Translations under genes and position numbers: made by a program
Shown: positions 3,250 through 18,178 of the stretch, one piece after another
How positions within the stretch are numbered: position 1 is the stretch's first letter
Layout: every line of letters starts with the position of its first letter
The notes under the pieces: generated by a model
Told to the model about the DNA's origin: nothing
Seen by the model: only the letters and a program-made list of their open reading frames with translations
The model's database searches: none
IMG/VR virus record: IMGVR_UViG_2802429241_000007
Location: 1 to 19,731 of that record
Strand: one strand, 5' to 3'
Source of the DNA: a virus
Lineage: Duplodnaviria; Heunggongvirae; Uroviricota; Caudoviricetes
Length of the DNA: 19,731 bases

Positions 3250-3375
3250 ACGTTCTCCTTTGTAGTTACTAAATTAATATCCTCTATTGATAGATTATTG
3301 TGTGTGATCATTGCGGCATTTAATAAAACGTAATGAGTTCATTGTATTTTATTTATGTTATCAGCCTTGCGCGCA

Positions 3376-3394: not shown

Positions 3395-3495
3395 CGCCCG
3401 CTTTGCGGGGCGGTTTTAATGCAGTTGCACTGACACGCTCAGACCGCGCCGGGAATGGTGCGGTCTGCAGAAAATGAGGCAGGAAAACGCATGCA

Positions 3496-3528
3496 AAGCC
3501 ATGCACCTTATCGATGCATGGCTTTTTT
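3496..3528 (+). terminator. Rho-independent terminator-like hairpin between cos and psu
   Basis: Perfect 10-bp stem AAGCCATGCA / TGCATGGCTT with a 9-nt loop, followed by a T-run on the plus strand. It may also act on read-through in the other direction. Confidence 0.45.
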
Positions 3529-3558
3529 CAGTAAAAACGGGAGGATTTTCGGGGAATT

Positions 3559-4131
3559 TTACACAGACTGACGTGATGCCAGTTGCGCACTTTTACGCGA
3601 AAAAATCATGTTCTGCGCAGGGGTGAATTTTTCACGGCTGTCATCCACCGAAGCCGCGTCAGGCCTGAATCCGATGGTCGTTAAAATGTCGCTATCCTGT
3701 GCGGAATAATTAATTTTTTCACCCTTCGCAAGCCAGGACAGGAGGGCTTCACGCAGGGCATCTGTGGCACGCTGTATGGCACAGTTTCGGGCAATGGCCG
3801 TCAGCTCACTGTAGCCCATCAGCTCCGGTGCCAGTGCCGCCGCCAGTGCTGTGCCGTGCTGCTGCATAAAATCATTCAGCCGGTCGCGGATGCTGATGTG
3901 CTGAACGGCTTCATGCGAACGAATATAACGACCGGCGGCCTGATTCACCTGCCATTTTCTGACTTCGATAATATTGCGTAATTCGTCCAGGCGGCTGACG
4001 TTTCTGCCTTCTCCTGACAGAAGCCGCAGATATTCCTGTTCGGCCGCTGCCAGCTCATTTTTGCGTTGCAGCCATGCTGCTTTGTTATTCTGACAGGTGT
4101 CAAAGGCCTGCTGTAAGGCTGTGCTTTCCAT
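3559..4131 (-). CDS. psu: Psu-like polarity suppression / capsid decoration protein
   Basis: 190-aa ORF starting MESTALQQAF, last gene of the sid-delta-psu block next to cos. Length and position match P4 Psu as I recall it. Confidence 0.8.
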   Translation of the reverse strand: MESTALQQAFDTCQNNKAAWLQRKNELAAAEQEYLRLLSGEGRNVSRLDELRNIIEVRKWQVNQAAGRYIRSHEAVQHISIRDRLNDFMQQHGTALAAALAPELMGYSELTAIARNCAIQRATDALREALLSWLAKGEKINYSAQDSDILTTIGFRPDAASVDDSREKFTPAQNMIFSRKSAQLASRQSV

Positions 4132-4204
4132 CGTTATCTCTTTCTCATCATGCTGAAGAATAAAAATACGGTGTGCGGCGACGGCCGGGGTTAACCGGCA
4201 GCCC

Positions 4205-4705
4205 TCATTCCAGACGCAGCGAATATGATTGTGTTTTTAACCGTACTGGCGGCAGTTCCTGTTTTTCATGCAGGCGTTCTGCCAGTTCGTCCGGCGTGAC
4301 CGGGCGGACAATGAAGCGGGTGATGGTCTGAAGCGTTTTAAACACCAGACCACAGCCCGGATCCGTGCACACATAAAAACGCTCGGTGACTTCCTGAGAC
4401 AGACGCCGCGATGTTCTTGACAGCGCAAGGCCTTTACATCTCCGACAACAATATCCGGTAACAAGCATTCTTTTCGGGCGTTTCATACTGCCGGAGGCCG
4501 ACGTCAGTGAATCGCGGTATCTCTGTTTGCCTGAAATGTATTCCATTCCTGAATCTTTACTGTCAGAGAAAAAGCTTTCACTCGCTTCAAATGTCGCAGA
4601 GCAATAAATATTCCGGCACTGTGCAATCATTATCTTGGTGCCATCGTCCATGAAATGTGCGCGACGGGTGTGAGCAACATGTCCACACGACGGGCAGTAA
4701 ATCAT
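4205..4705 (-). CDS. delta: Delta-like late transcription activator (tandem Ogr-type zinc-finger domains)
   Basis: 166-aa ORF with two Cys-rich modules (CPSCG...C...C near the N-terminus, CCRRCKG and CTDPGCG further on). Start ATG overlaps the sid stop (ATGA). Confidence 0.8.
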   Translation of the reverse strand: MIYCPSCGHVAHTRRAHFMDDGTKIMIAQCRNIYCSATFEASESFFSDSKDSGMEYISGKQRYRDSLTSASGSMKRPKRMLVTGYCCRRCKGLALSRTSRRLSQEVTERFYVCTDPGCGLVFKTLQTITRFIVRPVTPDELAERLHEKQELPPVRLKTQSYSLRLE

Positions 4706-5436
4706 GACAGCAGTCCTCTGGCCTTAAGCTCTGCTCCCTGCTGGTCTATTTTGTCCTGCCACACCTTGCGCTGTGCCGGTGTGCCTGCCACCTCATAATC
4801 CATGTGCGGGAGTGTTGCCGCTGACAGTCCGGCCAGCCGGAGAACCGGCTCGCCGGTGAGGCTGATTTGCATCTGTTTAATTTTCTGTTCCAGCGATGAT
4901 TTCACCTGCTGCATGACAGCCTTATCGGGTGCGACGTAGCCCTGATGGCCGGTGGTGTTGGCGAGCGGATTTTCCTGTACCAGGATACTCAGATGCATTG
5001 CCCGGACAAGCGCCTCACAGGTTTCATTCAGGGCGTGTTCCAGCTCATGCTCTGCATACAGACTCAGAAGGTGATGATGTGCCTTCCGGTAGGCGGTGGC
5101 CGTGCTGTCACACGCCCCTTTCAGGCGTTCACGTTCGAAATTCAGCACCACGGCCAGATTGTCATATTCCTGTACCAGCTCCCGGCGTGCCACGCGCTCA
5201 ATGTGGCGCTGTTTCAGCTCGTCGCTCAGGACACCACCGGCTGCACGAAAGGCCGTGCGCCAGTCGTCAGCGTCGTTTCCGTCGGCCTGCGCCAGCGCAT
5301 TTTTTTCCTGCTCTGCCCGTTCAATGGCCGTGACGGTCTCATCCATCAGGCGGGCGTTCTCAAGATGGGCGGCTCTGGCCTTTTCCAGTTGTGCCAGCGC
5401 GGGTTGCAGATATTCAGGGATGGTGTTGTCAGACAT
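4702..5436 (-). CDS. sid: Sid-like capsid size-determination (external scaffold) protein
   Basis: The track ORF starts at GTG 5454. I place the start at ATG 5436..5434 (MSDNTIPEY...), which has a GAGGAG Shine-Dalgarno and gives 244 aa, the size I recall for P4 Sid. Ala/Glu/Leu-rich helical composition. Confidence 0.8.
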   Translation of the reverse strand: MSDNTIPEYLQPALAQLEKARAAHLENARLMDETVTAIERAEQEKNALAQADGNDADDWRTAFRAAGGVLSDELKQRHIERVARRELVQEYDNLAVVLNFERERLKGACDSTATAYRKAHHHLLSLYAEHELEHALNETCEALVRAMHLSILVQENPLANTTGHQGYVAPDKAVMQQVKSSLEQKIKQMQISLTGEPVLRLAGLSAATLPHMDYEVAGTPAQRKVWQDKIDQQGAELKARGLLS

Positions 5437-5470
5437 TTTCCGGCTCCTCGTCACTTCAGGTTAAGAAAAT

Positions 5471-5526
5471 TGTGACGTACACCGGACAACAACACGACGC
5501 ATTGCAGATGTGCCAGCCCTGACACA
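5471..5526 (-). promoter_or_regulatory. Candidate Psid late promoter with two TGT-N12-ACA activator dyads
   Basis: TGT-N12-ACA at 5471..5488 and 5509..5526, centred about 38 bp apart. This fits the -18 and -55 arrangement I recall for Delta/Ogr-dependent P4 late promoters if transcription starts near 5462, just upstream of sid. Confidence 0.45.
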
Positions 5527-5605
5527 GGAGACTCATCCTCAGACCGGCAAGCCAGGAAAAGGTCGCAGGAAAAACCTGCTTACTGTTTGTTTTTTTATGT
5601 TTTAC

Positions 5606-5709
5606 TGTTCACCTCTGTTCACCATAAGAAAAAAGATAAGTAATACAGTAAGTTAAAGGGTGAACAATCGCAGTAATGACTGTTCACCGTCTGTTCACCA
5701 CTGTTCACC
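5606..5709. repeat. Iteron cluster (TGTTCACC octamers), ori-like alpha-binding region
   Basis: TGTTCACC at 5606, 5616, 5681, 5692 and 5702, plus an inverted copy GGTGAACA at 5659. The same octamer recurs in the crr-like repeats after alpha. I recall this as the P4 type I iteron. Confidence 0.6.
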
Positions 5710-5867
5710 CGTTGATGAGCTTTTTGTGCTGTTTATTACTGTTTATTTTTATTAATTCACTGAAATAAATAAGAAAAAACAATTTGTATTTCACTATAAT
5801 TTTTTCCAGCTCCTTCCAGAGCGTTTTAAAGCTATCTGGCGCTGATGTGCAAAAAACACACAGCCAT

Positions 5868-5885
5868 TGTAAGGCTGCCGGAACA
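5868..5885 (+). promoter_or_regulatory. Candidate late-left promoter activator site upstream of vis
   Basis: TGT-N12-ACA dyad (tgtaaggctgccggaaca) about 100 bp upstream of the vis-like ATG. No clean second dyad at -18. Confidence 0.3.
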
Positions 5886-5987
5886 AATCCCCCCTGTTGC
5901 GTCTGCCAAAAATATTCACAAAATAAAGCGCTACCCGAAGCCGGACGGACTTATCCGGTGCTGTATGGACATTAACGAGGTAGCCCG

Positions 5988-6254
5988 ATGCAAGCTGTTT
6001 TTTCTTCCCCGTCTCCCGCCCCTGTGACGCCACTGATGCCGCTGCCGGACATCACGCAGGAGCGTTTTTTACGTCTGCCGGAAGTGATGCACCTGTGCGG
6101 CCTGTCACGCTCGACCATCTACGAACTCATCCGTAAGGGGGAATTTCCGCCGCAGGTGAGTCTTGGCGGTAAAAATGTGGCCTGGCTGCACTCTGAAATC
6201 ACCGCATGGATGGCCGGGCGCATTGCCGGACGCAAACGGGGGTACGACGCATGA
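5988..6254 (+). CDS. vis: Vis/AlpA-family small DNA-binding regulator (excisionase-like HTH)
   Basis: 88-aa ORF with the HTH core [30 protein letters not shown] typical of AlpA/Vis regulators. ATG preceded by GAGG. The 88-aa length matches P4 orf88 (vis) as I recall it. Confidence 0.7.
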
Positions 6255-6289
6255 TGATGCCCGCTCTGCAAAAAGTCCCTTTTTCTGGC

Positions 6290-6319
6290 TTGCCTTTTTC
6301 CGGCATTTGCGGATATAGT
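6290..6319 (+). promoter_or_regulatory. Candidate sigma70 early promoter (PLE-like)
   Basis: TTGCCT (6290..6295), 18-bp spacer, TATAGT (6314..6319), oriented toward the early operon and upstream of the repeated leader elements. Confidence 0.3.
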
Positions 6320-6346
6320 TTTTCCGCTGTCGCAAAATCGGCAGCC

Positions 6347-6625
6347 GGGCGTAGGAACCCGTGTAACTCGAAGGCGACATATGACGCGCCATGCGTCTTT
6401 TTTTGTGTCGCAATCAACGCCACAGAGCGCCAGATTATGGTTTGCCGTGCAGGTATGATCCTGTTCGCAATCGCATGTTATGCCACTGAGTCAATGGTAG
6501 CTCAGGCGGGGCAGCCTCCGGGCTGGCCGGTATTCTTCGAGGCCGGTATTCCTACCCCCGTCTGGGCTATCGCCATCGAGCGTAGGAACTCCGGCGATAG
6601 CAGTTATTTGCTACTCGAAGGAGAC
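6347..6625 (+). ncRNA. Candidate RNA-immunity leader (seqA / seqB / seqC-like elements, CI-RNA-like region)
   Basis: GTAGGAAC...CTCGAAGG occurs twice (6349..6374 and 6580..6623). Between them, CTTCGAGGCCGGTATTCCTAC (about 6538..6556) is complementary to both arms. The second copy overlaps the Shine-Dalgarno of the first early ORF. Confidence 0.35.
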
Positions 6626-6631
6626 TGCCTT

Positions 6632-6829
6632 ATGGCTACAACCCTTACCCCCTCACACCCTGAATTTGTCTTTGTGTTTGCGGCTGTCCGTCGCGCAGAC
6701 CGTCATCCCCGTATCTGCATGCTTCGCACCGTCGCCGGTGATGAACGCAGTGCCCGCCGTTCCCTTGTCCGTGACTATGTGCTCTCCCTTGCTGCCCGTC
6801 TGCCGGTGGTGGAGGTGTCCCGTGCGTAA
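6632..6829 (+). CDS. Small hypothetical protein (65 aa), first ORF of the early operon (kil-like position)
   Basis: ATG at 6632 with AAGGAG Shine-Dalgarno 8 nt upstream. The long track ORF 6206..6829 is otherwise implausible because it runs through the RNA-leader region. Confidence 0.35.
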
Positions 6830-7109
6830 TAAAAAAGCCCCTCAGACCGTCTCAGCGCGTCATGACGCCCGTGAACACCTCAGCATTGAGGCTTACCATA
6901 AGCTCAACCGCGCCAGCGCCGTATCCCAGTTTGTTGGGGGTGATTTGATTCACCGTGAACTCTCCGGCCTGCATCAGCTCTACATTCCGCATATTTTCAG
7001 CTACCTGAATGAAGATATTGATTTTGTGCTGAATGAGCTGAAAACCAAAGGCCTGTGCCGCGATTTTCTCGCCCAGCAGAAAGACCGGGGAGACAGGACG
7101 CATGTTTGA
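6822..7109 (+). CDS. Hypothetical 95-aa protein (epsilon-like by position and size)
   Basis: GTG start at 6822 with GGAGG 6 nt upstream. The start overlaps the preceding stop and the stop overlaps the next start (translational coupling). Confidence 0.45.
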
Positions 7110-7557
7110 TTTTCCCCAGCCCGGTGAGATTTACCGTTCTGCCGGTTTTCCCGATGTGGCCGTGGTCGGCATTCTGGAAGACGGTATTCCGTGGGAAATG
7201 CCGTACCGCTGCCCGGACATTGTCTGGAACCCGTACCGCCGTAAATTCAGTATCCTTGTGCGTATCCTCGCTGACGGGCGCACCACAGACATCCCGCTGG
7301 GGCGTTTTCTGCGGGAATTTACCTGTGACCGTCCTGACCTGTTCAAACGCAGCCCCGTAAACCGGCATGCGGTACTGAAAGAAATGGCCGGAGACCCGGA
7401 ATTACAGAAATGGCGGGAGAAATATCTGGATATTTACCCGCAGGACCCTGTTCCGGTCAGCCGGGCGGCACCGGTGGCGCGGGAATGGCGGGAAATTCCC
7501 CGCACGGAGCCTGACCCGGAAATCACCCCGGATAACAGTTACCGCAATTATCTGTAA
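7102..7557 (+). CDS. Hypothetical 151-aa protein (same size and position as P4 orf151)
   Basis: ATG at 7102 overlapping the upstream stop, GGAG upstream. No motif recognised. Confidence 0.6.
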   Translation: MFDFPQPGEIYRSAGFPDVAVVGILEDGIPWEMPYRCPDIVWNPYRRKFSILVRILADGRTTDIPLGRFLREFTCDRPDLFKRSPVNRHAVLKEMAGDPELQKWREKYLDIYPQDPVPVSRAAPVAREWREIPRTEPDPEITPDNSYRNYL

Positions 7558-7692
7558 TTAAAAAACGACACCCGAAAAATTAAATGTGCGTATTCGCGCA
7601 GGGATACGCACGTCTTCAGGAGACGCAGATATGCCTTATCAGTTAATGCAACCGGCACGGAATGCAGTCATCTGTCACAGGGAGGAAAGCAA

Positions 7693-8013
7693 ATGAAAAC
7701 ACCCTTACCGCCCGTCTTACGCGCAGCCCTTTACCGTCGCGCTGTCGCCTGTGCCTGGCTGACCGTGTGCGAACGTCAGCACCGCTACCCGCATCTCACC
7801 CTTGAATCACTGGAGGCGGCCATCGCCGCTGAGCTGGAAGGCTTTTATCTGCGCCAGCACGGTGAGGAAAAAGGGCGTCAGATAGCCTGTGCCCTGCTGG
7901 AAGATTTAATGGAATCCGGCCCCCTGAAGGCCGCGCCGTCGCTGTCCTTTCTCGGGCTGGTTGTGATGGATGAACTCTGTGCCCGTCACATAAAAGCGCC
8001 GGTACTGCACTGA
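7693..8013 (+). CDS. Hypothetical 106-aa protein (same size and position as P4 orf106)
   Basis: ATG at 7693 with GGGAGG Shine-Dalgarno. Immediately upstream of alpha. Confidence 0.6.
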
Positions 8014-8027
8014 AGGAGAACAACACC

Positions 8028-10361
8028 ATGAAAATGAACGTAACCGCCACCGTCAGCCATGCGCTCGGCCACTGGCCGCGTATTCTCCCGGCACTGGGGA
8101 TTCAGGTGCTGAAAAACCGTCATCAGCCCTGTCCGGTCTGTGGCGGGAGTGACCGCTTCCGTTTTGATGACAGGGAGGGGCGCGGCACCTGGTACTGCAA
8201 TCAGTGTGGTGCCGGTGACGGCCTGAAACTGGTTGAAAAGGTGTTTGGTGTCTCCCCGTCCGACGCGGCCGCAAAGGTGGCTGCCGTGACAGGCAGCCTG
8301 CCCCCGGCTGACCCGGCAGTGACGGCTGCCGCCGTTGCTGAAACAGAAGCTGCCCGGAAGAACGCTGCCGCACTGGCACAAACCCTGATGGCAAAAACCC
8401 GTCCCGGAACCGGTAACGCCTACCTGACCCGCAAGGGCTTTCCCGACCGGGAATGCCGGATGCTGACCGGCACACACAGAGCCGGTGGCGTGAGCTGGCG
8501 CGCCGGTGACCTTGTGGTGCCACTGTATGACGACAGCGGCGAACTGGTTAACCTTCAGTTAATCAGTGCTGACGGCCGTAAGCGCACCCTGAAAGGCGGA
8601 CAGGTCAGGGGCACCTGTCACACCCTTGAAGGACAGAATCAGGCCGGAAAACGTCTGTGGATAGCGGAGGGATACGCGACCGCACTTACCGTGCATCACC
8701 TGACCGGTGAAACGGTGATGGTGGCGCTTTCTTCCGTGAACCTCCTTTCTCTGGCCAGCCTTGCCCGGCAGAAGCATCCGGCCTGTCAGATTGTCCTTGC
8801 CGCAGACCGTGACCTCAGCGGTGACGGCCAGAAAAAAGCCGCCGCAGCCGCAGATGCGTGTGAGGGCGTTGTTGCCCTGCCGCCGGTCTTCGGTGACTGG
8901 AATGATGCCTTCACGCAGTACGGCGGGGAAGCCACCCGTAAGGCCATTTACGATGCCATCCGGCCACCGGCTGAAAGCCCGTTCGACACCATGAGCGAAG
9001 CGGAGTTTTCCGCCATGAGTACCAGCGAAAAGGCCATGCGTATCTATGAGCATTACGGCGAGGCGCTCGCGGTCGATGCCAACGGCCAGCTTCTGTCCCG
9101 CTATGAAAATGGTGTCTGGAAGGTGCTGCCGCCACAGGACTTTGCCCGGGATGTGGCCGGGCTGTTTCAGCGGCTGCGTGCGCCGTTCTCCTCCGGGAAG
9201 GTGGCCTCCGTGGTGGACACCCTGAAGCTGATTATTCCGCAGCAGGAAGCCCCCTCCCGCCGCCTGATTGGCTTTCGTAACGGTGTGCTCGACACACAGA
9301 ACGGCACGTTCCACCCGCACAGTCCGTCACACTGGATGCGTACCCTGTGCGATGTGGATTTCACCCCGCCGGTGGAAGGGGAAACGCTGGAAACCCACGC
9401 TCCCGCGTTCTGGCGCTGGCTTGACCGTGCTGCCGGTGGTCGTGCGGAAAAACGCGACGTGATTCTGGCCGCACTGTTTATGGTGCTGGCAAACCGCTAC
9501 GACTGGCAGCTCTTTCTGGAGGTGACCGGTCCCGGCGGCAGCGGCAAAAGTATCATGGCCGAAATAGCCACCCTGCTGGCCGGGGAGGATAACGCCACGT
9601 CGGCCACCATCGAGACGCTGGAATCCCCGCGTGAACGTGCCGCGTTAACTGGCTTCTCACTGATACGCCTGCCGGACCAGGAAAAATGGAGCGGCGACGG
9701 TGCCGGACTCAAGGCCATCACCGGCGGCGATGCGGTGTCCGTTGACCCGAAATACCGGGATGCGTACTCCACGCACATCCCGGCGGTGATTCTGGCCGTG
9801 AACAATAACCCGATGCGCTTCACCGACCGCAGCGGCGGCGTGTCACGCCGGCGGGTGATTATTCACTTCCCGGAACAGATAGCCCCGCAGGAGCGCGACC
9901 CGCAGCTTAAGGACAAAATCACCCGCGAGCTGGCGGTCATCGTGCGTCACCTGATGCAGAAGTTCAGCGACCCGATGCTCGCCCGGTCACTGCTTCAGTC
10001 CCAGCAGAACTCAGACGAGGCACTGAACATCAAACGGGATGCCGACCCGACGTTTGATTTTATCGGCTATCTGGAAACCCTGCCGCAGACCAGCGGCATG
10101 TATATGGGGAACGCCAGTATCATCCCGCGTAATTACCGTAAATACCTCTATCACGCCTATCTGGCCTACATGGAGGCAAACGGCTACCGGAATGTACTCA
10201 GTCTGAAAATGTTCGGGCTGGGGCTGCCGGTGATGCTGAAGGAATACGGACTGAATTACGAGAAGCGCCATACCAAACAGGGGATACAGACCAACCTGAC
10301 GCTGAAAGAGGAAAGCTACGGCGACTGGCTGCCAAAATGTGACGACCCTGCAACAACCTGA
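8028..10361 (+). CDS. alpha: Alpha-like replication protein (zinc-binding primase, TOPRIM, helicase with Walker A)
   Basis: 777-aa ORF with AGGAG Shine-Dalgarno. N-terminal CPVCGG...CNQCG zinc motif and Walker A GPGGSGKS. Length matches P4 alpha as I recall it. Iterons on both sides. Confidence 0.9.
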   Translation: MKMNVTATVSHALGHWPRILPALGIQVLKNRHQPCPVCGGSDRFRFDDREGRGTWYCNQCGAGDGLKLVEKVFGVSPSDAAAKVAAVTGSLPPADPAVTAAAVAETEAARKNAAALAQTLMAKTRPGTGNAYLTRKGFPDRECRMLTGTHRAGGVSWRAGDLVVPLYDDSGELVNLQLISADGRKRTLKGGQVRGTCHTLEGQNQAGKRLWIAEGYATALTVHHLTGETVMVALSSVNLLSLASLARQKHPACQIVLAADRDLSGDGQKKAAAAADACEGVVALPPVFGDWNDAFTQYGGEATRKAIYDAIRPPAESPFDTMSEAEFSAMSTSEKAMRIYEHYGEALAVDANGQLLSRYENGVWKVLPPQDFARDVAGLFQRLRAPFSSGKVASVVDTLKLIIPQQEAPSRRLIGFRNGVLDTQNGTFHPHSPSHWMRTLCDVDFTPPVEGETLETHAPAFWRWLDRAAGGRAEKRDVILAALFMVLANRYDWQLFLEVTGPGGSGKSIMAEIATLLAGEDNATSATIETLESPRERAALTGFSLIRLPDQEKWSGDGAGLKAITGGDAVSVDPKYRDAYSTHIPAVILAVNNNPMRFTDRSGGVSRRRVIIHFPEQIAPQERDPQLKDKITRELAVIVRHLMQKFSDPMLARSLLQSQQNSDEALNIKRDADPTFDFIGYLETLPQTSGMYMGNASIIPRNYRKYLYHAYLAYMEANGYRNVLSLKMFGLGLPVMLKEYGLNYEKRHTKQGIQTNLTLKEESYGDWLPKCDDPATT

Positions 10362-10377
10362 CCCTCATGACCCACCT

Positions 10378-10402
10378 GACCGGCATCTGCCGGTCTTTTT
10401 TT
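10378..10402 (+). terminator. Rho-independent terminator after alpha
   Basis: GACCGGC-ATCT-GCCGGTC stem-loop followed by TTTTTTT, 17 nt after the alpha stop. Confidence 0.65.
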
Positions 10403-10418
10403 ATCCCTGAATTCCCCG

Positions 10419-10512
10419 CAGGTGAACAATCCACTGTTCACCCTTCACCGTATATTCACCCGTTATCACACTGAAATTAAAAGAGAAAAACGAAAGGTGA
10501 ACAGTGTGAACA
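10419..10512. repeat. crr-like direct repeat, copy 1 (iteron-containing)
   Basis: 94-bp unit beginning caggtgaacaatccactgttcaccc and ending gaaaggtgaacagtgtgaaca. Contains TGTTCACC/GGTGAACA octamers. Confidence 0.65.
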
Positions 10513-10598
10513 ATCAAATCAAAAAAAACTTTTTTCTTCCTGAGTGATTTCAGTACGGGGGATTAATCACCGGTATGAGTCACACCGGCAGAATGCCG

Positions 10599-10692
10599 GA
10601 GGTGAAGAATCGAATGTTCACCCTTCACCCATTATTCACCACCTATCACTATGAAATAAAAGGAGAAAAAAGAAAGGTGAACAGTGTGAACA
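10599..10692. repeat. crr-like direct repeat, copy 2
   Basis: 94-bp unit closely matching copy 1 (gaggtgaagaatcgaatgttcaccc...gaaaggtgaacagtgtgaaca). Confidence 0.65.
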
Positions 10693-10906
10693 GTTCTTCC
10701 GAAAAAAAATTTTTTATGTGGATAAAAGATGCACTGGTTTGGATCCGAACTACGGATCCAAACTTACTGATTAAAAATTATTTAACTTTCCGATTTGTTG
10801 ATGGGCTGAAAATAGATTGGTCAGAAAAACAGTGGGGGCACAAAAGGGGGCATATTTCATTGTTGTGTTTTATTATTTGTTTTTTATCATTGACTTATTT
10901 TGATGT

Positions 10907-10927
10907 TTGAGTCCGGCCTTCGCACCA
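10907..10927 (+). other. att-like partial repeat of the tRNA-Leu 3' end (distal boundary of the satellite)
   Basis: GTTTGAGTCCGGCCTTCGCACCA closely resembles the 3' end of E. coli tRNA-Leu leuX (GGTTCGAGTCCGGCCTTCGGCACCA, from memory), the P4 integration target. Two differences, so either a degenerate copy or imperfect recall. Confidence 0.5.
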
Positions 10928-11560
10928 TACCGTATGCAAATCGAGTCGCTCAAGGGCGGCTTTTTTTGTATATAAAATCTAGTATCCGTAAGGCTTTCCT
11001 CGCTTTTTCACGTAACCTAAGTCAGCCAACTTTAATCTACATTAACTTATTGATGGCGAGTGCCTCTGCTGGTATTTCCCGGTTAGATAATATTTGTTCT
11101 CACACGAACCCTCTGAAAGGATATTCATTGTGGCTCTGAGTGATGTGAAAGTTCGTTCGGCAAGGTCTGAGTAAAAGCTTATAAACTACCGGATAGTGAA
11201 CTATTAATAAAAGCGATACGGGGCTATCTGGAATACCCCGGCAACATGCCGCTGCCTGAACAGATTACAAATGTCGCTGTATTCGAAGATGTGTATCGTT
11301 TCCTGTTGAATGGTTCCGGTGGCTGGAGCTGCGCCGTACTGATGTGGCAGCAGTCCGTGTCTTCCTTTAGAATTATCGATATCGCCATTGTGATGCAATA
11401 GGTAAACCGCAGCGCCTCATTTCTGCCGTGTGCCGGATCATTGCTATCGAACCAGGCACCAACGTGCTGTAGTACATCGTTCTGCTAATGATGCGGAGAG
11501 GGGATATGTATCGTAAGAATTATTTTGTAATAAATCTAATGAATCCAACATAGGGTAAGA

Positions 11561-11588
11561 ATAAAAGGGTAGGCCACGAAACCTACCC
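11561..11588 (-). terminator. Rho-independent terminator after the methyltransferase gene
   Basis: On the minus strand: GGGTAGG-N8-CCTACCC followed by a T-rich run, 8 nt after the methyltransferase stop. Confidence 0.5.
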
Positions 11589-11595
11589 TGTATGG

Positions 11596-12849
11596 TTATC
11601 TTTTATTTATCTTATCTAAAAGATGTACCACAGATTTGCCAACAGCAAATGACAGATTAACAGGAACAGCATTTCCTATTTGCTTATATTTCGCTGACAT
11701 TGGGCCTTCAAATACCCAGTCATCGGGGAAGGTCTGTATTCTTGCATACTCACGCACAGTTAATGGTCTTGTTTCTTCTGGGTGGCAACGCTCTGTTTGT
11801 TTCTGTGCTGGGGCGCATGTTAATGTTAGGCTTGGTTCATCCCATGACAAGCGACGAGCCATACCAGTTTTGCCCCCTCCTAAGTAAAAACTCTTGAGCA
11901 TGTATTCTTTTTGAATATCTTCTGGAAGATCTCTCCAATAGCCACCGGGAGGAACCATACTTAGGATCTCTGCTTTTCTTTTGGGATATTTTTGTCCCTC
12001 AGATTCTGGCACGTCGCTATCGTACAAGTCTCCCTTTTTTAATGCATCTTTAAGGGTTAATATTTTATTGTAAGAAGAAGGCCACTCATAATCGATGCCA
12101 TCAGCAAGATCATTTCTTACAGCTACAATGATCAAACGCTCTCGTTTTTGCGGCACTTTGTAGAAAATAGCCTTAAGTACTCTTGGCTCAAATAAAGTGT
12201 AGCCCAAGTCTGTGATAATATTTTTTATTGTTTCTAAAGTTCGCCCATCATCATGATTTAGCAACCCTCGAACATTCTCTGCTAAAAGAACTTTCGGATT
12301 GACTTCTTTAGCTGCTCGGGCGAATTCAAAGAAAAGGGTGCCCCGTGTGTCTTCAAAACCAAGTTTTTTGCCTGCATAAGAGAATGCCTGGCAAGGAAAG
12401 CCACCAGCCAGCACATCAACGGTATTCCTATAAGGAGTGAAGTCTACTTGGCTCACATCGCCTTCAACCACATTCCATTCAGGCCTATTTTTTCGTAACG
12501 TCTTACAAGCATGGGAGTCAATTTCATTTAGTAAAACAGATTTTAAACCTGCTTTTTCCAAACCTAAAGCCATCCCCCCTGCGCCAGCAAATAACTCTAA
12601 TACAGTATAAACATTATTGCTAATTTTAGTCTCATCAGACCACTGGCTTTTAAATAAAAACTGAGCTTGTTCAAAATTTTTAAGTTGCTCTTTTTTATAA
12701 AATCGATAGTTGTTTTCGTCATTTCTTTGAGAAACTAATTTTCCAGCAGTATCCCAACGCCTTAAAGTTTCTTTTGAAACACCCAAAATGTCTGCAACTT
12801 CTGAAAGTGAAAATTCTTCCTTTAACATATTTAGTAACCATGCCAACAT
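11596..12849 (-). CDS. DNA (cytosine-5)-methyltransferase with N-terminal HTH domain
   Basis: Canonical C5-MTase motifs: I LFAGAGGMALG, IV GFPCQAFS, VI ENVRGLL, VIII QKRERLIIV, X GNAVPV. N-terminal roughly 50 aa looks like a MerR-type HTH (SLSEVADILGVSKETLRRWDTAGKL). Start may be ATG 12849 or the ATG 21 nt downstream (MLKEEF). Confidence 0.85.
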   Translation of the reverse strand: MLAWLLNMLKEEFSLSEVADILGVSKETLRRWDTAGKLVSQRNDENNYRFYKKEQLKNFEQAQFLFKSQWSDETKISNNVYTVLELFAGAGGMALGLEKAGLKSVLLNEIDSHACKTLRKNRPEWNVVEGDVSQVDFTPYRNTVDVLAGGFPCQAFSYAGKKLGFEDTRGTLFFEFARAAKEVNPKVLLAENVRGLLNHDDGRTLETIKNIITDLGYTLFEPRVLKAIFYKVPQKRERLIIVAVRNDLADGIDYEWPSSYNKILTLKDALKKGDLYDSDVPESEGQKYPKRKAEILSMVPPGGYWRDLPEDIQKEYMLKSFYLGGGKTGMARRLSWDEPSLTLTCAPAQKQTERCHPEETRPLTVREYARIQTFPDDWVFEGPMSAKYKQIGNAVPVNLSFAVGKSVVHLLDKINKR

Positions 12850-12908
12850 TAGTCATGGTTACTACTGTATGAGTTTACATGTACTTTGTCAAACGTTGAT
12901 CATGGTTA
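12833..12908. promoter_or_regulatory. Candidate operator: CATGGTTA boxes around the methyltransferase start
   Basis: AGTAACCATG (12833..12842) and CATGGTTACT (12854..12863) form a 10-bp inverted repeat with an 11-bp spacer that contains the ATG at 12849. A third CATGGTTA box lies at 12901..12908. Confidence 0.35.
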
Positions 12909-13628
12909 TCAGCCGTAAGCGAGCCCAAAATACTTAATAAAACTATCTTTATCAGGGATGGAAAAGCCTTGCTGCCCAAGACGCTCGCTCAAAATATACT
13001 CAATTGCGTGAGGAAGAGCACTATGGAGTTCTTGTAGAGCATCTGGTCTGCCTGTGACAAGTTCATAGAAGCTCGCACCATCAATGATTCGAATTTTAGG
13101 GTTCGAAGGACACAGAGTACCGCTACCTTTATTGGAAGGGGTAAAAGGGATGTCATATCTGATAGGTTTACGAGGGATTATATTAACAAAGTACGCGCAG
13201 TAATCCTTAAATCGGCTATGTTTCGGTGATACTAACTCATCTAAACCTTTATACTTATCTGCTAAATCCCCGCCAGTAACCGTTGAGTATTTATTTTTCA
13301 CCTCAGCGATGATTCTTCTCTCTTCATTGAGAAGATCAACGATGCCACCAATCCCCATATCCCGCCATCCTTCAACATGGCCGAGGATTTTTTGGTGAAA
13401 AGTACCAACATGATTTTGAATGGTTTTCTGTCGTTGTCGTGCGAGTTCGGAGTTTCGCCACTCTTCATGGGATGAGAACCCTGGAGCTTCAAAAAGTGCG
13501 CCAAAAGGGTCAATCACATTGCTGGTAAAAGTCTTCTCAGCGGCGTCTTTTTTCTTTTTAGCTTTCGTTAATAAGGTTTCAACTTCGTTAAAAAGATCTT
13601 CATCACTGATATATTCAAGTAATGACAT
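12909..13628 (-). CDS. Putative type II restriction endonuclease (PD-(D/E)xK-like), upstream partner of the methyltransferase
   Basis: 239-aa ORF with ATG at 13628 and GGAG upstream, co-directional with and 59 bp upstream of the C5-MTase. Candidate catalytic core IVD...(12 aa)...AEVK is consistent with PD-(D/E)xK. AT-rich. Confidence 0.5.
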   Translation of the reverse strand: MSLLEYISDEDLFNEVETLLTKAKKKKDAAEKTFTSNVIDPFGALFEAPGFSSHEEWRNSELARQRQKTIQNHVGTFHQKILGHVEGWRDMGIGGIVDLLNEERRIIAEVKNKYSTVTGGDLADKYKGLDELVSPKHSRFKDYCAYFVNIIPRKPIRYDIPFTPSNKGSGTLCPSNPKIRIIDGASFYELVTGRPDALQELHSALPHAIEYILSERLGQQGFSIPDKDSFIKYFGLAYG

Positions 13629-14662
13629 AGTTGTATCTCCATCATTCTTTATAATTCAATAAATTTTTCGCGTAATAACCTTTGGGAGCTATTGTGGTTA
13701 CGGCTAATTACACGACAGCTCTCAAAAACGACACTGGAGCAAGTTTTCTAATCATAACGATTACAGACATAGATTAAAACGATCAATGAGCACTTAAAGA
13801 GAGGGGGGGTTGTGGTGTGATCTGAATGGCTTGTGCTGAGGATTCGAGCAATATGTTACGGGGATAGGGGATTGAAGTGGCACACTGAATTTGGCTACCT
13901 GAACAGAGGTGATATGCTCACCTCTGAATCTGCTCGTTGATTTTGTTCAGCAAACTATTGAGCAGGAAATACAACGTTACGGCAACCAGTACCGCAGTTT
14001 TGCGTGTCACCAGTTGATGAGTTAAAAATGGGAGAGGATGAGTTGGCGAATAATCCTCTCTACCAGATACGCTATCAGCAGTTTGTTTCTCCAATGGTGT
14101 ATGGAGAACGAAAGATCACATGGGATGAGGCTTACTCCAGGTTTAGGAGCTTAGCGTTAGCCATCCTGAATGCTTGATATGCAGCATTTGTCTTTATTTG
14201 AAATTCCGATAAACATCGTGAAGCGTTAAAGTACCGACTGATTATTCAGTTTGTTGATTTTTCAGAGAATCGCGCTGAGTATACATGTGAATATACAAAG
14301 TGATTTTGGCTATGAAATCACATTTATTTCAATGAGTTATCTTTTAAAGAGCAGCCCAGTCTTCACATCAATAGACGTCAACTGAGGTCTTTTTTTATGC
14401 CTGAAATCCGCGCCACACAAATCTTTTCCGCTGTTTTTTCCAACTAACGTCAACCTGGTTCAATCCATATTAAATCCCTGAAGAATACCGAACCAAGTAT
14501 GTTTGCGCTTATCTATTAAGGATTCGGCTCTTTCAGAAAATCTAATCCATCCTCCAGGCACAATATTTATTGCGATCGTGCTCGCATCGTGGACAATGTT
14601 TAATCATAAGTAATATTTACATCAATGAAATCAATGATTTCTATTATGTCACGGAATGGAAA

Positions 14663-17600
14663 ATGGACAGCAATACATTGGGATTCACTTCATACTGGCG
14701 CAACTCCTTAGCTGACGCCGAATCTGGTAAAGGAACGTTTTCACGTAAAGATACAGATTCATTCATTCGATGGATAAATATCACCACAGGGAAGTTGGAT
14801 GACGAGACTATTCGGGCATTTTTTGACGGTGAAGGGGAGTCGGTAAAAACCGTTGAAGTCGTGTTACGGCCCCAAGTGTGGAACCGCATAGTAAAGCATG
14901 GCAAAGAGCAAATGGCAGATGTACCCGCAATTATCACGCCACTGGTTACCTCCGCTCTTCTGAATAGGGAAGGTTTTTTGTTTCCTGCCGCTTCAGCCAC
15001 TATTCCCCGCGATCTGCTTGAACCTCTCCCTTCCGGTCATTTTTCTATTGGTGAGTTGGCGCAATATGACAAATACAAAACCACGCATAACACAGCCACC
15101 ATTAATGAAGATGACCCAGAACATTACGAAGAAACTGACGAAGAGAAAGCGGAACGCCATGCCAGGTATCGTCAGCATTGGCAAAATTATCTTCAACAGT
15201 CAGATAACCTTTTAAGAAACGTCACTGGAAATTGGGTCGCTACATCTGAGCCATACGAACGGGCTGGATACGGTTATATTGTTAAAGCTAGCCAGCATGT
15301 AGGGGCCAGCGTTCATATCCTGCCTATGTATGACCATCTTCTGATGAGCCAGGTTAAGGTTCCGCTATTAACGCGTTTTGCCTCAAACGAAATGGCTCCA
15401 GTGGAGCCACTTCTCGCTAAGAATGCGATGTTCTGCGAACGTTTGGGGCATTCCGGCGATAAGTTTCCGCTGGCAGTGGCGCAGCGCGATGCCCTGAGCC
15501 ATTATCTGACTCAACAGCAGGGTGATATGCTCGCTGTCAACGGTCCTCCGGGAACGGGTAAAACTACGCTGGTGCTTTCTATTATTGCCACCGAATGGAC
15601 AAGAGCCGCACTTAATCAAACTGAACCTCCTGTAATCATTGCCACATCGACTAACAATCAGGCCGTCACCAATATTATTGAAGCCTTTGGAAAAGATTTC
15701 TCTACTGGTTTTGGCGTAATGTCTGGGCGTTGGTTGCCGGAGGTAATAAGCTATGGCGCTTATTTTCCGTCTAAAAGCCGTCTGGTTGAGGCAGCGAAGA
15801 AATACCAGACTGGAGATTTTTTTAACCGCGTTGAATCCCAGGAATATCTGGAAAAAGCCCGGGCCTTTTACCTTGAAAAAGCGGAGGCGGCGTTTGGAGC
15901 TGGAGAGTACAATTCGCCAGAGCATGTAGTGACGCTTTTGCATGAACGTTTAACTTCACAGTTTATGCAACTTCAGCAAATCGAACCCGCATGGCGCAGA
16001 CTCAATGATATCCGCCATGAACAGCGAGTCATCAGTGAGAATCTCGACCAGTATCTTCAGGACAAAAACACACTTCTTCTCAATATTGGCAATGAAATTT
16101 CACTTTTAGTCAGAGGTAAAAAGCAGTGGCAGCAATACCGTGCCAATGAGTCGCTTATGTATGCATTTTTGTCATGGCTCCCTGCTGTTCGTGCTAAACG
16201 CCATTACCAGATTAACCTCTTCCTGGACTCTACGTTCGGCGCAAGAATGACAGCGTTCCAGGGAAATTGTCCCGAAGATATTGATAAATTTATCGATAGT
16301 TTGATCGCTAAAGCGCAACAAGAGCAGGCGGTGTGCCAACAGAATATCAACTTTGCGCAGGACATAGCCCGACGTGAAGTGGAAGCAGCAAAACAATGGC
16401 ACGAGTTGACTTATGCGCTGGGCTACAGGGGATGCGATGAGCTGAACCTCGCCGGCGCGGACGAGCTTGCCGATACTCAGATTCGTTTTCCTGCGTTCTT
16501 GCTAGCGACTCATTATTGGGAAGGTCGCTGGCTGATGGATATGGCGACAATCGATAATCTGCAAAAAGAAAAAGGACTCACTGGGGCGATTAGTGTCAAG
16601 GCCCGATGGCGAAGAAGAATGAAACTTACCCCCTGTGTGGTGATGACCTGCTACATGTTGCCTTCTCAAATGATAACGGGGAAATTTGTCGGAGGTGCCA
16701 GGCAATTTGATAATGATTATTTATATAACTTTGCTGATTTACTGATCGTCGATGAAGCAGGGCAGGTGCTCCCGGAGGTTGCTGCGGCTTCCTTTGCATT
16801 AGCTAAGAAAGCGCTGGTAATAGGCGATACAGAACAAATAGCACCAATCTGGAATTGTCTGCCTGTCACCGATATAGGCAATATGCTGGAGGAGAACATT
16901 CTTTCTGGCGACACTCAGGAAGAGCTAATGAATGCATATTCCCATGTGTGTGAGTCTGGAAAAAGTGCGGCATCCGGCAGCGTGATGAAAGTTGCTCAGT
17001 ACAATTCTCGCTACCAATATGATCCCAAGTTCGAGCGCGGAATGTATCTGTATGAGCATCGTCGCTGTTTCAATAACATCATCGGCTACTGTAACTCACT
17101 TTGCTATCACGGTAAGTTGCAGCCCAAAAGAGGAATGGAAAAAGAGACGATTTTCCCGGCAATGGGGTTTTTGCATATTGACGGCAGGGGCATGAAGCCA
17201 AATGGAGGTAGCCGTTATAACCCTCTTGAAGCGGAAACAATTGCAGCATGGCTGGTGGCGCATAAGGATGGTATAGAGCGCCATTACGGGGAACCGCTGT
17301 ATAAAGTCGTTGGTATTGTGACGCCATTTTCGGCACAGGTTAATGCCATCAAGACGTCATTGCGTAAGCTGGAGATTAATTGCAATGACGAAGAGGGTTC
17401 GCTGACCGTGGGGACTGTGCACTCCTTGCAGGGTGCGGAAAGGGCGATTGTTCTCTTTTCTACGGTCTATTCAAAACATGAAGATGGTCAGTTTATTGAC
17501 AGCAATAGCAGTATCCTGAATGTCGCAGTCTCACGCGCTAAAGATAGTTTTCTGGTCTTCGGTGATATGGACCTTATAGAGATGCAGCCAGCATTTTCGC

Positions 17601-18178
17601 CGCGAGGGTTATTGGCAAAATTTCTGTTTGCTTCAGATAATAATGCGTTGCAATTTGAGTTTCAGAAACGGCAGGATTTAAGTTCCGCACAGACACAAAT
17701 TTCAACGTTGCATGGTGTGGAGCAGCATGATGAATTTTTGAATAATGCTCTGGCCGCAGCTCAACAGAAGATCACGATTATTTCCCCTTGGTTATCCTGG
17801 CAAAAAGTGGAGCAAACGGGTTTTCTTGCGTCGATGGCTCTGGCCCGTTCCCGGGGTATTGATATTACCGTGGTAACGGATAAAAACTGCAATATTGCGC
17901 ATGTCGATGATGATAAGCGCCAGGAGAAACTGCATCTTCTAAATGATGCAGTCGAAAAGCTCAATAATATGGGCATTGCTACAAAATTGGTGAATCGCGT
18001 TCACAGCAAAATTGTGATTAGAGATGAGGAGTTGCTGTGCGTTGGATCTTTTAACTGGTTCAGTGCTGCGCGAGAAGATAAATATCAACGATACGATACG
18101 TCTTTGGTGTACCGTGGCGAAGGCGTAAAAAATGAAATAAAGGCGATATATAGCAGTCTGGATCAACGTCAGCTATAA
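14663..18178 (+). CDS. Upf1-like SF1 helicase fused to a C-terminal PLD-family (HKD) nuclease domain; candidate single-gene defence protein (Mokosh type II-like)
   Basis: Walker A GPPGTGKT (15542..15565), Walker B DEAGQ (16751..16765), helicase motifs [28 protein letters not shown] and [18 protein letters not shown]-terminal HSKIVIRD-x6-GSFN is a textbook HxK-x4-D-x6-GSxN PLD signature (18002..18055). The track ORF starts at TTG 14570; the first in-frame ATG is 14663. About 290 aa N-terminal to Walker A (from ATG 14663) has no motif I recognise. Confidence 0.8.

What the first reader, a model, noticed from the sequence alone, without database searches (positions are those of the whole stretch)
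11561..13628. Type II R-M-like pair with an HTH-bearing C5-methyltransferase and repeated CATGGTTA boxes at its start
The methyltransferase has all canonical C5 motifs plus an N-terminal HTH. Its start codon sits inside a 10-bp inverted repeat, with a third box nearby, which suggests autoregulation by the methyltransferase's own HTH. The upstream 239-aa partner has a plausible PD-(D/E)xK core but no recognisable family, so the specificity is unknown.
Basis: partly seen in the sequence, partly recalled or inferred. Interest (0 to 1): 0.5.

Follow-up and report, generated by a model that had tools for sequence, protein, structure and literature searches.

The report
Eco47II restriction system, self-regulating methylase
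This is a near-exact copy of the long-known Eco47II restriction-modification system (target GGNCC), and the repeated boxes in front of its methylase gene are very probably operators through which the methylase's own DNA-binding head shuts off its own promoter, a conserved control circuit that I could not find described.

Summary
The sequence features are real. On the minus strand, a 239-aa gene (12909..13628) is followed by a 417/410-aa C5-methyltransferase (11596..12849 or ..12828) with an N-terminal MerR-type HTH. CATGGTTA occurs three times in the window, all within 12835..12908.

The claim of no recognisable family is wrong. The 239-aa protein is Pfam RE_Eco47II (E=4e-49). The methylase is 412/417 identical to Swiss-Prot M.Eco47II. 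Both exact proteins are already annotated in Escherichia marmotae. This is the Eco47II system, specificity GGNCC.

The autoregulation idea is strongly supported by comparison. In 80 related loci from several phyla and four gene orders, a 17-bp quasi-palindrome, TAACCATGWNYAAKGTT, sits 2 nt after the methylase promoter's -10 element. In R->M loci a second copy overlaps the -35. Loci that lost the box also lost the canonical MerR wing motif (62/4 versus 0/7). One orthologue has swapped the MerR head for a Cro/C1 HTH and has a different palindrome.

The most likely mechanism is SsoII/EcoRII-style autorepression of a near-consensus methylase promoter, built from a non-homologous HTH. Binding and repression are inferred, not shown. 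The genes are already known. The circuit is a new variant of a known kind. Interest is modest.

The parts
12909..13628 (-). eco47IIR-type restriction endonuclease gene, 239 aa, PD-(D/E)xK with D98, E109, K111
11596..12849 (-). eco47IIM-type C5 methyltransferase gene. It is 417 aa from ATG 12849, but the more probable start is ATG 12828 (410 aa). It has an N-terminal MerR-type winged HTH (residues 13-67 of the 417-aa form; wing motif N46-N47-Y48-R49-F50-Y51), then a linker, then the catalytic domain from residue 81.
   Evidence: PF00145 full length plus MerR_1/MerR. 412/417 identical to MTE8_ECOLX, M.Eco47II. The N-domain hits MerR-family structures (3qao E=6e-7). Relatives start at the M8 equivalent, with Shine-Dalgarno-like motifs.
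12892..12908 (-). Distal operator (box A), TAACCATGATCAACGTT. It starts directly after the R stop codon, and its 3' end runs into the -35 hexamer.
   Evidence: Exact match to the 17-bp consensus. Conserved in 24 distinct R->M loci as TAACCATGAyyAAkGTTTGAC. All 3 exact matches of this pattern in IMG/VR lie between an Eco47II-type R and an HTH-M.
12864..12892 (-). Predicted sigma-70 promoter of the methylase gene: -35 TTGACA (12887..12892), 17-bp spacer, -10 TACAGT (12864..12869)
   Evidence: Best promoter-like site in 11400..14000, 10 of 12 matches. TTGAC and TACAGT are conserved in gammaproteobacterial relatives. They are replaced by TATAAT in Methylococcales and by TAnnTTTG in Bacteroidota, at the same position relative to the box.
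12845..12861 (-). Proximal operator (box B), TAACCATGACTAATGTT. It begins 2 nt after the -10 and covers the expected transcription start. It contains the first ATG (12847..12849).
   Evidence: Exact consensus match. Present in 60 of 73 loci at this position. The positions not used for selection (AA.GTT) are conserved in 58/59, 58/59, 50/59, 58/59 and 57/59 sequences.
12832..12842 (-). Third, inverted half-site CATGGTTA(CTA). It is the right arm of the 11-bp inverted repeat and ends 3 nt before ATG 12828.
   Evidence: An inverted (n)TGGTTA directly before the start codon is common in Bacteroidota relatives and absent in most gammaproteobacterial ones.
11566..11589 (-). Intrinsic-terminator-like hairpin plus T-run just after the methylase stop codon
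   Evidence: 10-bp stem, 5 GC pairs.
11597..13873 (-). Extent of the conserved Eco47II cassette, 96.75% identical to contigs carrying the exact prototype M.Eco47II and to Escherichia ruysiae
   Evidence: blastn; loci.

Best explanation
The locus is an allele of the classical Type IIP system Eco47II. R (239 aa, PD-(D/E)xK) cuts unmethylated GGNCC, and M (C5-methyltransferase) protects it.

M carries an N-terminal MerR-type winged HTH that lacks the MerR dimerisation helix. The three CATGGTTA boxes belong to two 17-bp quasi-palindromic operators, TAACCATGWNYAAKGTT (dyad AACCaTG-NN-CAtGGTT), plus one extra inverted half-site. These bracket a near-consensus M promoter. Box A abuts or overlaps the -35. 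Box B starts 2 nt after the -10 and covers the transcription start.

Proposed mechanism (inferred). In a naive cell the unrepressed strong promoter gives an early burst of M. R has no recognisable strong promoter of its own, so it lags behind. When M accumulates, its HTH heads, probably two per box as for M.SsoII, occupy the operators. This excludes RNA polymerase and may also block read-through from R, holding M at a low steady level.

Shown here: gene identities, box positions, the promoter match, deep conservation, and HTH/box co-variation. Inferred: binding, the sign of regulation, stoichiometry, and the transcription start.
For: Identity of the system:
- PF09553 and PF00145+MerR.
- M is 412/417 identical to MTE8_ECOLX.
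- The exact proteins are annotated in E. marmotae.
- The R model is closest to EcoO109I, RGGNCCY.
- GGNCC is the most depleted of 16 ABNB'A' palindromes in the window: 17 observed against 63 expected.

Operators:
- Of 101 exact TAACCATG in 592 kb of 76 loci chosen only by R homology, 78 lie within -120..+20 of the M start. That is about 185-fold the density elsewhere.
- The box follows M in all four gene orders (R>M, M>R, convergent, divergent) across Gammaproteobacteria, Bacteroidota, Chloroflexota, Spirochaetota and others. It always lies 2 nt downstream of the lineage's own -10 or -7 element.
- Positions not used for selection are 85-98% conserved.
- The best promoter in the region is TTGACA-17-TACAGT, flanked by the boxes.
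- HTH/operator coupling: 62 of 66 loci with the canonical YRxY wing have a box with at most 2 mismatches, against 0 of 7 with a degenerate wing (Fisher p=2e-7, not corrected for phylogeny).
- L043 has swapped the MerR head for a Cro/C1 HTH_26. It lacks the box and has a different near-palindrome.
- 3 of 3 IMG/VR matches to the distal pattern sit between R and HTH-M.

Precedent: regulatory MTases SsoII, Ecl18kI and EcoRII (PMC3978073, PMC2760811, PMC12707154).
Against: - There are no binding, footprint, reporter or transcription-start data.
- The HTH lacks the coiled coil that dimerises MerR proteins, so the binding mode is unknown.
- Canonical MerR proteins are activators that act inside 19-20-bp spacers.
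- The Fisher test ignores relatedness. The degenerate-wing loci represent perhaps four independent events.
- The full-length M model was unusable (pLDDT 38.5).
- The window copy has no clear Shine-Dalgarno sequence before either ATG.
- How R expression is timed is not explained. Upstream regions of R are unconserved and box-free.
- At least the Mycoplasma Eco47II-type methylase has no HTH (PMC10305163), so the circuit is not obligatory for the family.
Confidence: 0.75

Rival explanations
1. The inverted repeat acts at the RNA level. A hairpin in the leader sequesters the start region of M and controls translation, for example on read-through R-M transcripts. The DNA boxes are incidental.
For: The 56-nt leader folds into an 11-bp-stem hairpin of -16.5 kcal/mol, z=-4.27, with 0 of 200 shuffles as stable. 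The first AUG lies in the loop region and the second lies 3 nt after the stem.
Against: The left arm is invariant in sequence across phyla, and right-arm variation is not compensated (TGTGGTTA, ATATGGTTA and others). Most gammaproteobacterial relatives have no right arm but keep both direct boxes. The predicted start, about 7 nt after the -10, lies inside the left arm, so promoter-derived mRNA could not form the stem. This model does not explain box A or the HTH co-variation. It may still be a secondary layer on read-through transcripts.
Confidence: 0.1
2. The HTH binds the boxes but works as a MerR-like activator, or as a switch that favours R, rather than as an autorepressor.
For: The domain is MerR family, and that family consists typically of activators. 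In SsoII/Ecl18kI, M binding indirectly raises R transcription (PMC2760811, PMC6100179).
Against: The promoter has an optimal 17-bp spacer and a consensus -35, so it needs no DNA-distortion activation. The boxes flank the -35/-10 spacer rather than lying inside it, and they cover the start site. There is no effector or dimerisation domain. R lies upstream and co-directional, with no competing promoter at the boxes.
Confidence: 0.1
3. The HTH is not a regulator. It is an accessory DNA-tethering or target-search module, and the boxes are bound by some other host or element factor, or are recombination or mobility sites of the cassette.
For: No direct binding data exist. The cassette has sharp homology borders (11597..13873) and sits among mobile and defence genes.
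Against: The boxes track the M start and its promoter, not the cassette ends, in four gene orders and several phyla, where no shared host factor is expected. Loss or replacement of the HTH coincides with loss or replacement of the box.
Confidence: 0.04
4. The boxes are a chance cluster of a short word.
For: 8 of 200 shuffles of the window reach 3 copies of the 8-mer somewhere.
Against: All three copies fall within 74 bp. Both 17-mers match an independently derived consensus exactly. The same element recurs in 60 or more independent loci.
Confidence: 0.01

Closest known systems
Eco47II R-M system of E. coli RFL47 (Swiss-Prot MTE8_ECOLX for M; Pfam RE_Eco47II for R). From my own knowledge, it was cloned by Stankevicius et al., Gene 1995, as part of a unit with two endonucleases and one methylase.
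   Same: M is 412/417 identical. The lengths (239/417 aa), the R->M order and the intergenic boxes are the same. The cassette is 96.75% identical in DNA to contigs carrying the exact prototype M.
   Different: Those contigs and E. ruysiae carry an IS256-type transposase and a SinI-family endonuclease (R.Eco47I-like, GGWCC) after M. The window has neither. The genomic setting also differs: here the cassette lies next to a P4-like satellite and a Mokosh gene.
Regulatory C5-methyltransferases M.SsoII / M.Ecl18kI (PMC3978073, PMC2760811, PMC6100179)
   Same: An N-terminal HTH of about 70 aa is joined by a linker to a C5-MTase. A short palindromic operator lies in the M promoter. The expected result is autorepression of a strong M promoter.
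   Different: The SsoII head is Xre/434-repressor-like, whereas this one is MerR-type, which is not homologous. SsoII has one 15-bp operator between divergent, competing R and M promoters. Here there are two 17-bp operators plus an extra half-site around a single promoter in a tandem R->M unit, so no promoter-competition route to R is apparent.
M.EcoRII (and, from my own knowledge, M.MspI and M.ScrFIA) autorepressing methylases
   Same: M represses its own gene, and the endonuclease gene is not directly affected (PMC12707154).
   Different: The HTH and operator are different. EcoRII repression depends on the methylation status of substrate sites. There is no GGNCC site in the 12830..12910 control region.
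MerR-family regulators and truncated MerR-like wHTH proteins (BldC, RacA N-domain)
   Same: The HTH-wing has the G/N-Y-R-x-Y motif. The best solved-structure matches are MerR-like regulators, with weak matches to BldC (6ama) and RacA (5i41).
   Different: There is no dimerisation coiled coil and no effector domain. The operator is not inside a long -35/-10 spacer. The domain is fused to an enzyme.
EcoO109I (RG/GNCCY) and AvaII (G/GWCC) endonucleases
   Different: Sequence identity is only 11-12%, and they belong to different Pfam families.
C-protein-controlled R-M systems (PvuII, AhdI, Esp1396I)
   Same: An HTH protein binds operators at R-M promoters to time expression.
   Different: There is no separate C gene here. 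The HTH is part of M, and it sits at the M promoter rather than at a C/R promoter.

Membership tests
Eco47II Type IIP R-M system (GGNCC) | Endonuclease belongs to Pfam RE_Eco47II (PF09553) | tested here: met
   E=4e-49, profile 1-201/202. Public annotation reads 'Eco47II family restriction endonuclease'.
Eco47II Type IIP R-M system (GGNCC) | Cognate C5-methyltransferase orthologous to M.Eco47II | tested here: met
   412/417 identical to MTE8_ECOLX.
Eco47II Type IIP R-M system (GGNCC) | Intact PD-(D/E)xK catalytic core | tested here: met
   D98, E109 and K111 are invariant. The model has pLDDT 86 with a restriction-endonuclease fold. The fold assignment for the family is in PMC3424549.
Eco47II Type IIP R-M system (GGNCC) | Cleaves G/GNCC and methylates GGNCC | not testable with these tools
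   Indirect evidence only: near-identity to the prototype, the closest structure being EcoO109I (RGGNCCY), and GGNCC depleted to 0.27 of expectation. The literature gives the specificity of homologues (PMC10305163, PMC3265524).
Regulatory HTH-fused C5-methyltransferases (SsoII/Ecl18kI/EcoRII kind) | N-terminal DNA-binding HTH domain fused to the MTase | tested here: met
   MerR_1 E=1.9e-11, residues 13-67. Conserved in nearly all of 73 relatives.
Regulatory HTH-fused C5-methyltransferases (SsoII/Ecl18kI/EcoRII kind) | Palindromic operator in the methylase promoter | tested here: met
   17-bp quasi-palindromes overlap the -35 and the start site. This is sequence evidence only.
Regulatory HTH-fused C5-methyltransferases (SsoII/Ecl18kI/EcoRII kind) | HTH homologous to the SsoII Xre/434-like regulatory domain | tested here: not met
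   The domain is MerR family, with no HTH_3/Xre hit. It is therefore an analogue, not a member of the SsoII-like family. One orthologue (L043) does carry a Cro/C1 HTH.
Regulatory HTH-fused C5-methyltransferases (SsoII/Ecl18kI/EcoRII kind) | Divergent R and M genes with competing promoters | tested here: not met
   R and M are co-directional and 59 bp apart.
Regulatory HTH-fused C5-methyltransferases (SsoII/Ecl18kI/EcoRII kind) | Demonstrated operator binding and repression by M | not testable with these tools
   Supported only by HTH/box co-variation and the module swap.
MerR-family transcription factors | Winged HTH with the YRxY wing motif | tested here: met
MerR-family transcription factors | C-terminal coiled-coil dimerisation helix and effector domain | tested here: not met
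   The MerR_1 match stops at profile position 54/69, and the MTase domain begins at residue 81.
MerR-family transcription factors | Operator within an over-long (19-20 bp) -35/-10 spacer | tested here: not met
   The spacer is 17 bp and the boxes flank it.
C-protein-controlled R-M systems | Separate small C gene upstream of R | tested here: not met
   There is no such ORF in 11400..14000. The regions upstream of R are unconserved.

The most novel reading that the evidence does not exclude
The MerR-type head of M.Eco47II and its 17-bp operator form an ancient, portable and so far undescribed R-M control module. It is conserved from Enterobacteria to Bacteroidota. It works without the MerR dimerisation helix. 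In R->M systems it uses two operators 47 bp apart to clamp the promoter and to block read-through from R, thereby setting the R:M ratio. It is interchangeable with Xre-type heads, as in L043. The GATC at the dyad of about half of the gammaproteobacterial boxes might add Dam or replication coupling.
Probability: 0.35. Interest if true: 0.45.

Novelty: new variant of a known kind. Interest (0 to 1): 0.33.

Why it matters
As an R-M system, this finding adds nothing new. It is Eco47II, cloned in the 1990s and already correctly annotated in Escherichia marmotae.

The value lies in the control region. It gives a precise, testable operator and promoter map for a widely used methylase. M.Eco47II is on cyanobacterial helper plasmids such as pRL623. 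It also shows that regulatory methyltransferases have arisen with at least two unrelated HTH classes on the same catalytic scaffold.

If confirmed, this would extend the SsoII/EcoRII paradigm to a MerR-type head with a phylum-spanning operator. It would also supply a compact autoregulated promoter/repressor pair.

Tried and rejected
- Megablast of 11400..13800 against complete E. coli genomes, PLSDB plasmids and INPHARED phages found no match. The system is in E. marmotae/ruysiae and other Enterobacterales, found through the protein and GTDB searches instead.
- A protein search with the 66-aa N-domain alone returned only fragments.
- The exhaustive HMMER search with the N-domain returned generic or multi-copy MerR HTH proteins and said nothing on architecture.
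- The AlphaFold model of M from a shallow alignment was unusable (pLDDT 38.5).
- Rfam found nothing in 10300..14600.
- Literature searches for Eco47II regulation or MerR-type HTH methylases found nothing relevant. The 1995 cloning paper is not in the library, so prior description cannot be excluded.
- The extra TAACCATG at about -356 in Bacteroidota loci is not a second operator. It encodes the conserved WHGY of a divergent vsr gene.
- Methylation-dependent control, as in CfrBI or EcoRII, is rejected because there is no GGNCC in the control region.
- Control of R by the boxes is rejected because there is no box or conservation upstream of R.
Full report
**What is in the sequence**

Both genes lie on the minus strand. 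A 239-aa ORF (12909..13628) is followed, after 59 bp, by a 417-aa ORF (11596..12849). The downstream protein matches the C5-methylase profile end to end (PF00145, 1-323/324, E=1.4e-84). It also has a MerR-type HTH at residues 13-67 (MerR_1 E=1.9e-11; MerR E=3.1e-11).

CATGGTTA or its complement occurs three times in the 19.7-kb window, all within 12835..12908, against 0.63 expected. By my own Poisson estimate, about 2e-6 such triple clusters within 74 bp are expected by chance. The inverted repeat is 11+11 bp (TAGTAACCATG-N11-CATGGTTACTA), and the first ATG lies in its spacer.

**Identity of the pair**

- It hits Pfam RE_Eco47II at E=4e-49 and PADLOC REase_II at E=1.9e-130.
- It has 384 homologues at E<=0.001; those that carry a source name are called Eco47II family restriction endonuclease.
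- The exact R and M protein sequences exist in public records of Escherichia marmotae, named 'Eco47II family restriction endonuclease' and 'modification methylase Eco47II'.
- M is 412/417 identical to Swiss-Prot MTE8_ECOLX, the prototype M.Eco47II.
- D98, E109 and K111 are invariant in a 21-sequence alignment.
- The literature assigns the family to the PD-(D/E)XK fold (PMC3424549), gives G/GNCC for Eco47II homologues (PMC10305163), and notes that M.Eco47II protects AvaII sites (PMC3265524).

The specificity is therefore known with high confidence: GGNCC.

Contigs carrying the exact prototype M show the order R, M, IS256-type transposase, SinI-family endonuclease. This fits my recollection of the original Eco47I/Eco47II unit, which had two endonucleases and one methylase. 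The window shares only the 2.28-kb R-M cassette, 11597..13873, at 96.75% identity.

**The boxes are part of a longer, deeply conserved element**

A scan of one genome per species with an R-protein alignment returned 80 loci. They come from Gammaproteobacteria, Bacteroidota, Chloroflexota, Spirochaetota, Bacillota and others. Nearly all encode an M whose alignment to the window protein begins at residues 1-13, meaning it includes the HTH.

Of 101 exact TAACCATG words in 592 kb of these loci, 78 fall within -120..+20 of the M start. This is about 185 times the density elsewhere. The loci were selected by R homology, so this result is not circular.

Aligning on the word reveals a 17-bp unit, TAACCATGWNYAAKGTT. 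The AA.GTT positions were not used for selection, yet they are conserved in 58/59, 58/59, 50/59, 58/59 and 57/59 distinct sequences. The unit is a quasi-palindrome (AACCaTG-NN-CAtGGTT), as expected for two HTH heads on one site.

In the window both 17-mers match this consensus exactly: box A at 12892..12908 and box B at 12845..12861. No other site in the window has fewer than 3 mismatches. Two other matches are explained. The 3-mismatch hit at 12835..12851 is the extra inverted half-site. The extra copies at about -356 in Bacteroidota encode the WHGY motif of a divergent vsr gene and are not operators.

**Relation to the promoter**

The best sigma-70-like site in 11400..14000 is the minus-strand TTGACA (12887..12892), a 17-bp spacer, then TACAGT (12864..12869), matching 10 of 12 positions. 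Box A ends in the first base of the -35, and the conserved string continues as GTTTGAC. Box B begins 2 nt after the -10 and covers the expected start site.

This geometry is conserved while the promoter type changes. Enterobacteria and Vibrio-like loci have TACAGT, Methylococcales have TATAAT, and Bacteroidota have the -7 element TAnnTTTG. In each case the element directly abuts TAACCATG.

Box A is present in 24 distinct R->M loci, always immediately after the R stop codon and usually 47 bp upstream of box B. The 21-nt distal pattern has three exact matches in the whole IMG/VR collection. All three lie between an Eco47II-type R and an HTH-M.

**Start codon**

The first ATG (12849) is the 'AATG' that the operator consensus produces in about half of all boxes. 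Relatives start at the equivalent of M8, often behind a Shine-Dalgarno-like motif. NCBI's 410-aa records use that start.

The true start is therefore probably ATG 12828, which places the whole inverted repeat in the leader.

**Coupling of the HTH and the box**

The N-domain is a genuine MerR-family winged HTH. Its best solved-structure match is 3qao (E=6e-7), with weak matches to the truncated MerR-like proteins BldC and RacA. It has the family's Y-R-x-Y wing motif (N46-N47-Y48-R49-F50-Y51) but no dimerisation coiled coil.

Among 73 loci, 62 of 66 with the canonical wing have a box with at most 2 mismatches. The other four have indel or relocated variants. All 7 loci with a degenerate wing (GCH, NHG, NTG, NRS, DKT, NHR) lack it. 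Fisher's exact test gives p=2e-7, but this is uncorrected for relatedness, and the 7 loci represent perhaps four independent events.

In L043 (a Bacillota MAG) the orthologous methylase is 60% identical from residue 76 onward. It carries a Cro/C1 HTH_26 head instead of the MerR head. It has no TAACCATG box, and it has a different near-palindrome (CGAACATATATTCG) before its start. Swapping the head together with the operator is what a cis-regulatory pair predicts.

**Mechanism**

The best-supported reading is autorepression of a strong methylase promoter by the methylase's own head. It is analogous to M.SsoII/M.Ecl18kI and M.EcoRII (PMC3978073, PMC2760811, PMC12707154) but uses a non-homologous HTH.

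R has no promoter at the scan's threshold. Its upstream regions are unconserved and box-free, and in several loci R follows a housekeeping gene after only about a dozen bases. A plausible sequence on entering a new cell is an early burst of M from the free promoter, slower R expression, and then shut-down of M. Bound M may also block read-through from R. All of this is inference.

MerR-style activation is unlikely. The spacer is an optimal 17 bp, and the boxes flank it rather than sit within it.

An RNA hairpin formed by the inverted repeat is stable (-16.5 kcal/mol, z=-4.3). Three observations argue against it as the main function. The arms are conserved in sequence without compensatory change. 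The right arm is missing in most gammaproteobacterial relatives. The predicted start lies inside the left arm. It can be at most a secondary layer on read-through transcripts.

There is no GGNCC site in the control region, so methylation-dependent control is not indicated.

**Novelty and limits**

The R-M pair is already known and already correctly annotated. The principle of an HTH-fused regulatory methylase is also known.

What I could not find in eight literature searches is any description of the MerR-type head of M.Eco47II as a regulator, or of this operator. The 1995 cloning paper is not in the library, so prior mention cannot be excluded.

I therefore rate the circuit as a new variant of a known kind, of modest interest. 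The full-length M model was unusable, and the two N-domain homology searches were uninformative.

**Context**

The pair sits in a defence-rich stretch.
- A P4-like satellite at 1..10361 carries integrase, Psu, Delta, Ash and alpha primase, with Kiwa (KwaA/KwaB) in its hotspot.
- A full-length Mokosh MkoC lies at 14570..18178.
- GGNCC is the most depleted of all 16 ABNB'A' palindromes in the window (ratio 0.27). The ratio is 0.16 in the satellite part and 0.51 in a K-12 control region. CCNGG is not depleted.

Noticed in passing
window 1..10361: P4-like phage satellite: integrase (1..1266 +), Psu (3559..4131 -), Ogr/Delta (4205..4705 -), Ash (6206..6829 +) and alpha primase-helicase (8028..10361 +). 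A complete Kiwa pair, KwaB (1323..2216 -) and KwaA (2225..2740 -), sits in the integrase-psu hotspot (PADLOC E=6.5e-117 and 1.6e-76).
   Followed up: partly
window 14570..18178 (+): A 1202-aa SF1 helicase (AAA_11/AAA_12) with a C-terminal PLD nuclease domain. It matches PADLOC MkoC (Mokosh type II) over the full length (E=0, profile 1-1135/1136). The Eco47II pair therefore lies between two other defence systems.
   Followed up: partly
whole window; strongest in 1..10400: GGNCC is the most depleted of all 16 ABNB'A' palindromes: 17 observed against 63 expected (ratio 0.27, z about -6). The P4-like part has 7 against 43 (0.16). A 50-kb E. coli K-12 control region gives 0.51. CCNGG is not depleted. 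This is consistent with long-term avoidance of GGNCC-type restriction, stronger in the mobile element.
   Followed up: partly
window 10392..10419 and 14386..14413: A 28-nt direct repeat (GGTCTTTTTTTATCCCTGAATTCCCCGC and GGTCTTTTTTTATGCCTGAAATCCGCGC, 89% identical), 3994 bp apart, brackets the segment that holds the Eco47II cassette. These may be att-like or terminator-type module borders.
   Followed up: no
window 10416..10535 and 10596..10715: A 120-nt direct repeat (81% identical), each copy with 15-nt inverted repeats (CACTGTTCACCCTTC / GAAAGGTGAACAGTG), lies in an ORF-poor stretch after the satellite's alpha gene. There is no Rfam match. Its nature is unknown.
   Followed up: no
L081 6289..8366, L082, L001 (relatives of the window cassette): Contigs with the exact prototype M.Eco47II, and E. 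ruysiae, carry an IS256-type transposase and a 230-aa SinI-family endonuclease (R.Eco47I-like, GGWCC) downstream of M. The window keeps only 84 bp of that downstream region (11509..11592) and lacks both genes. A 52-bp stretch next to the cassette's R-side border in the window (13873..13924) reappears in inverted orientation beyond the SinI-like gene in L081.
   Followed up: partly
L043 2591..3877 (Bacillota MAG): An orthologous Eco47II-type methylase whose MerR head is replaced by a Cro/C1 HTH_26 domain. It has a different upstream near-palindrome (CGAACATATATTCG) and a divergent vsr gene. This is a natural swap of the regulatory module.
   Followed up: partly
L029, L030, L035, L037, L038, L040, L065 (Bacteroidota), about 60-530 bp upstream of M: A divergently transcribed vsr (very-short-patch repair endonuclease) gene shares the control region with M. 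The M operator therefore lies between vsr and M and might also affect vsr expression.
   Followed up: no
window box A 12897..12900; distal boxes of L001, L002, L004-L008, L021, L027, L062: About half of the gammaproteobacterial operators have a Dam site (GATC) exactly at the dyad (ATGATCAA). Bacteroidota have TGTATA or TGTGTA there instead. Possible Dam or replication coupling is untested.
   Followed up: no
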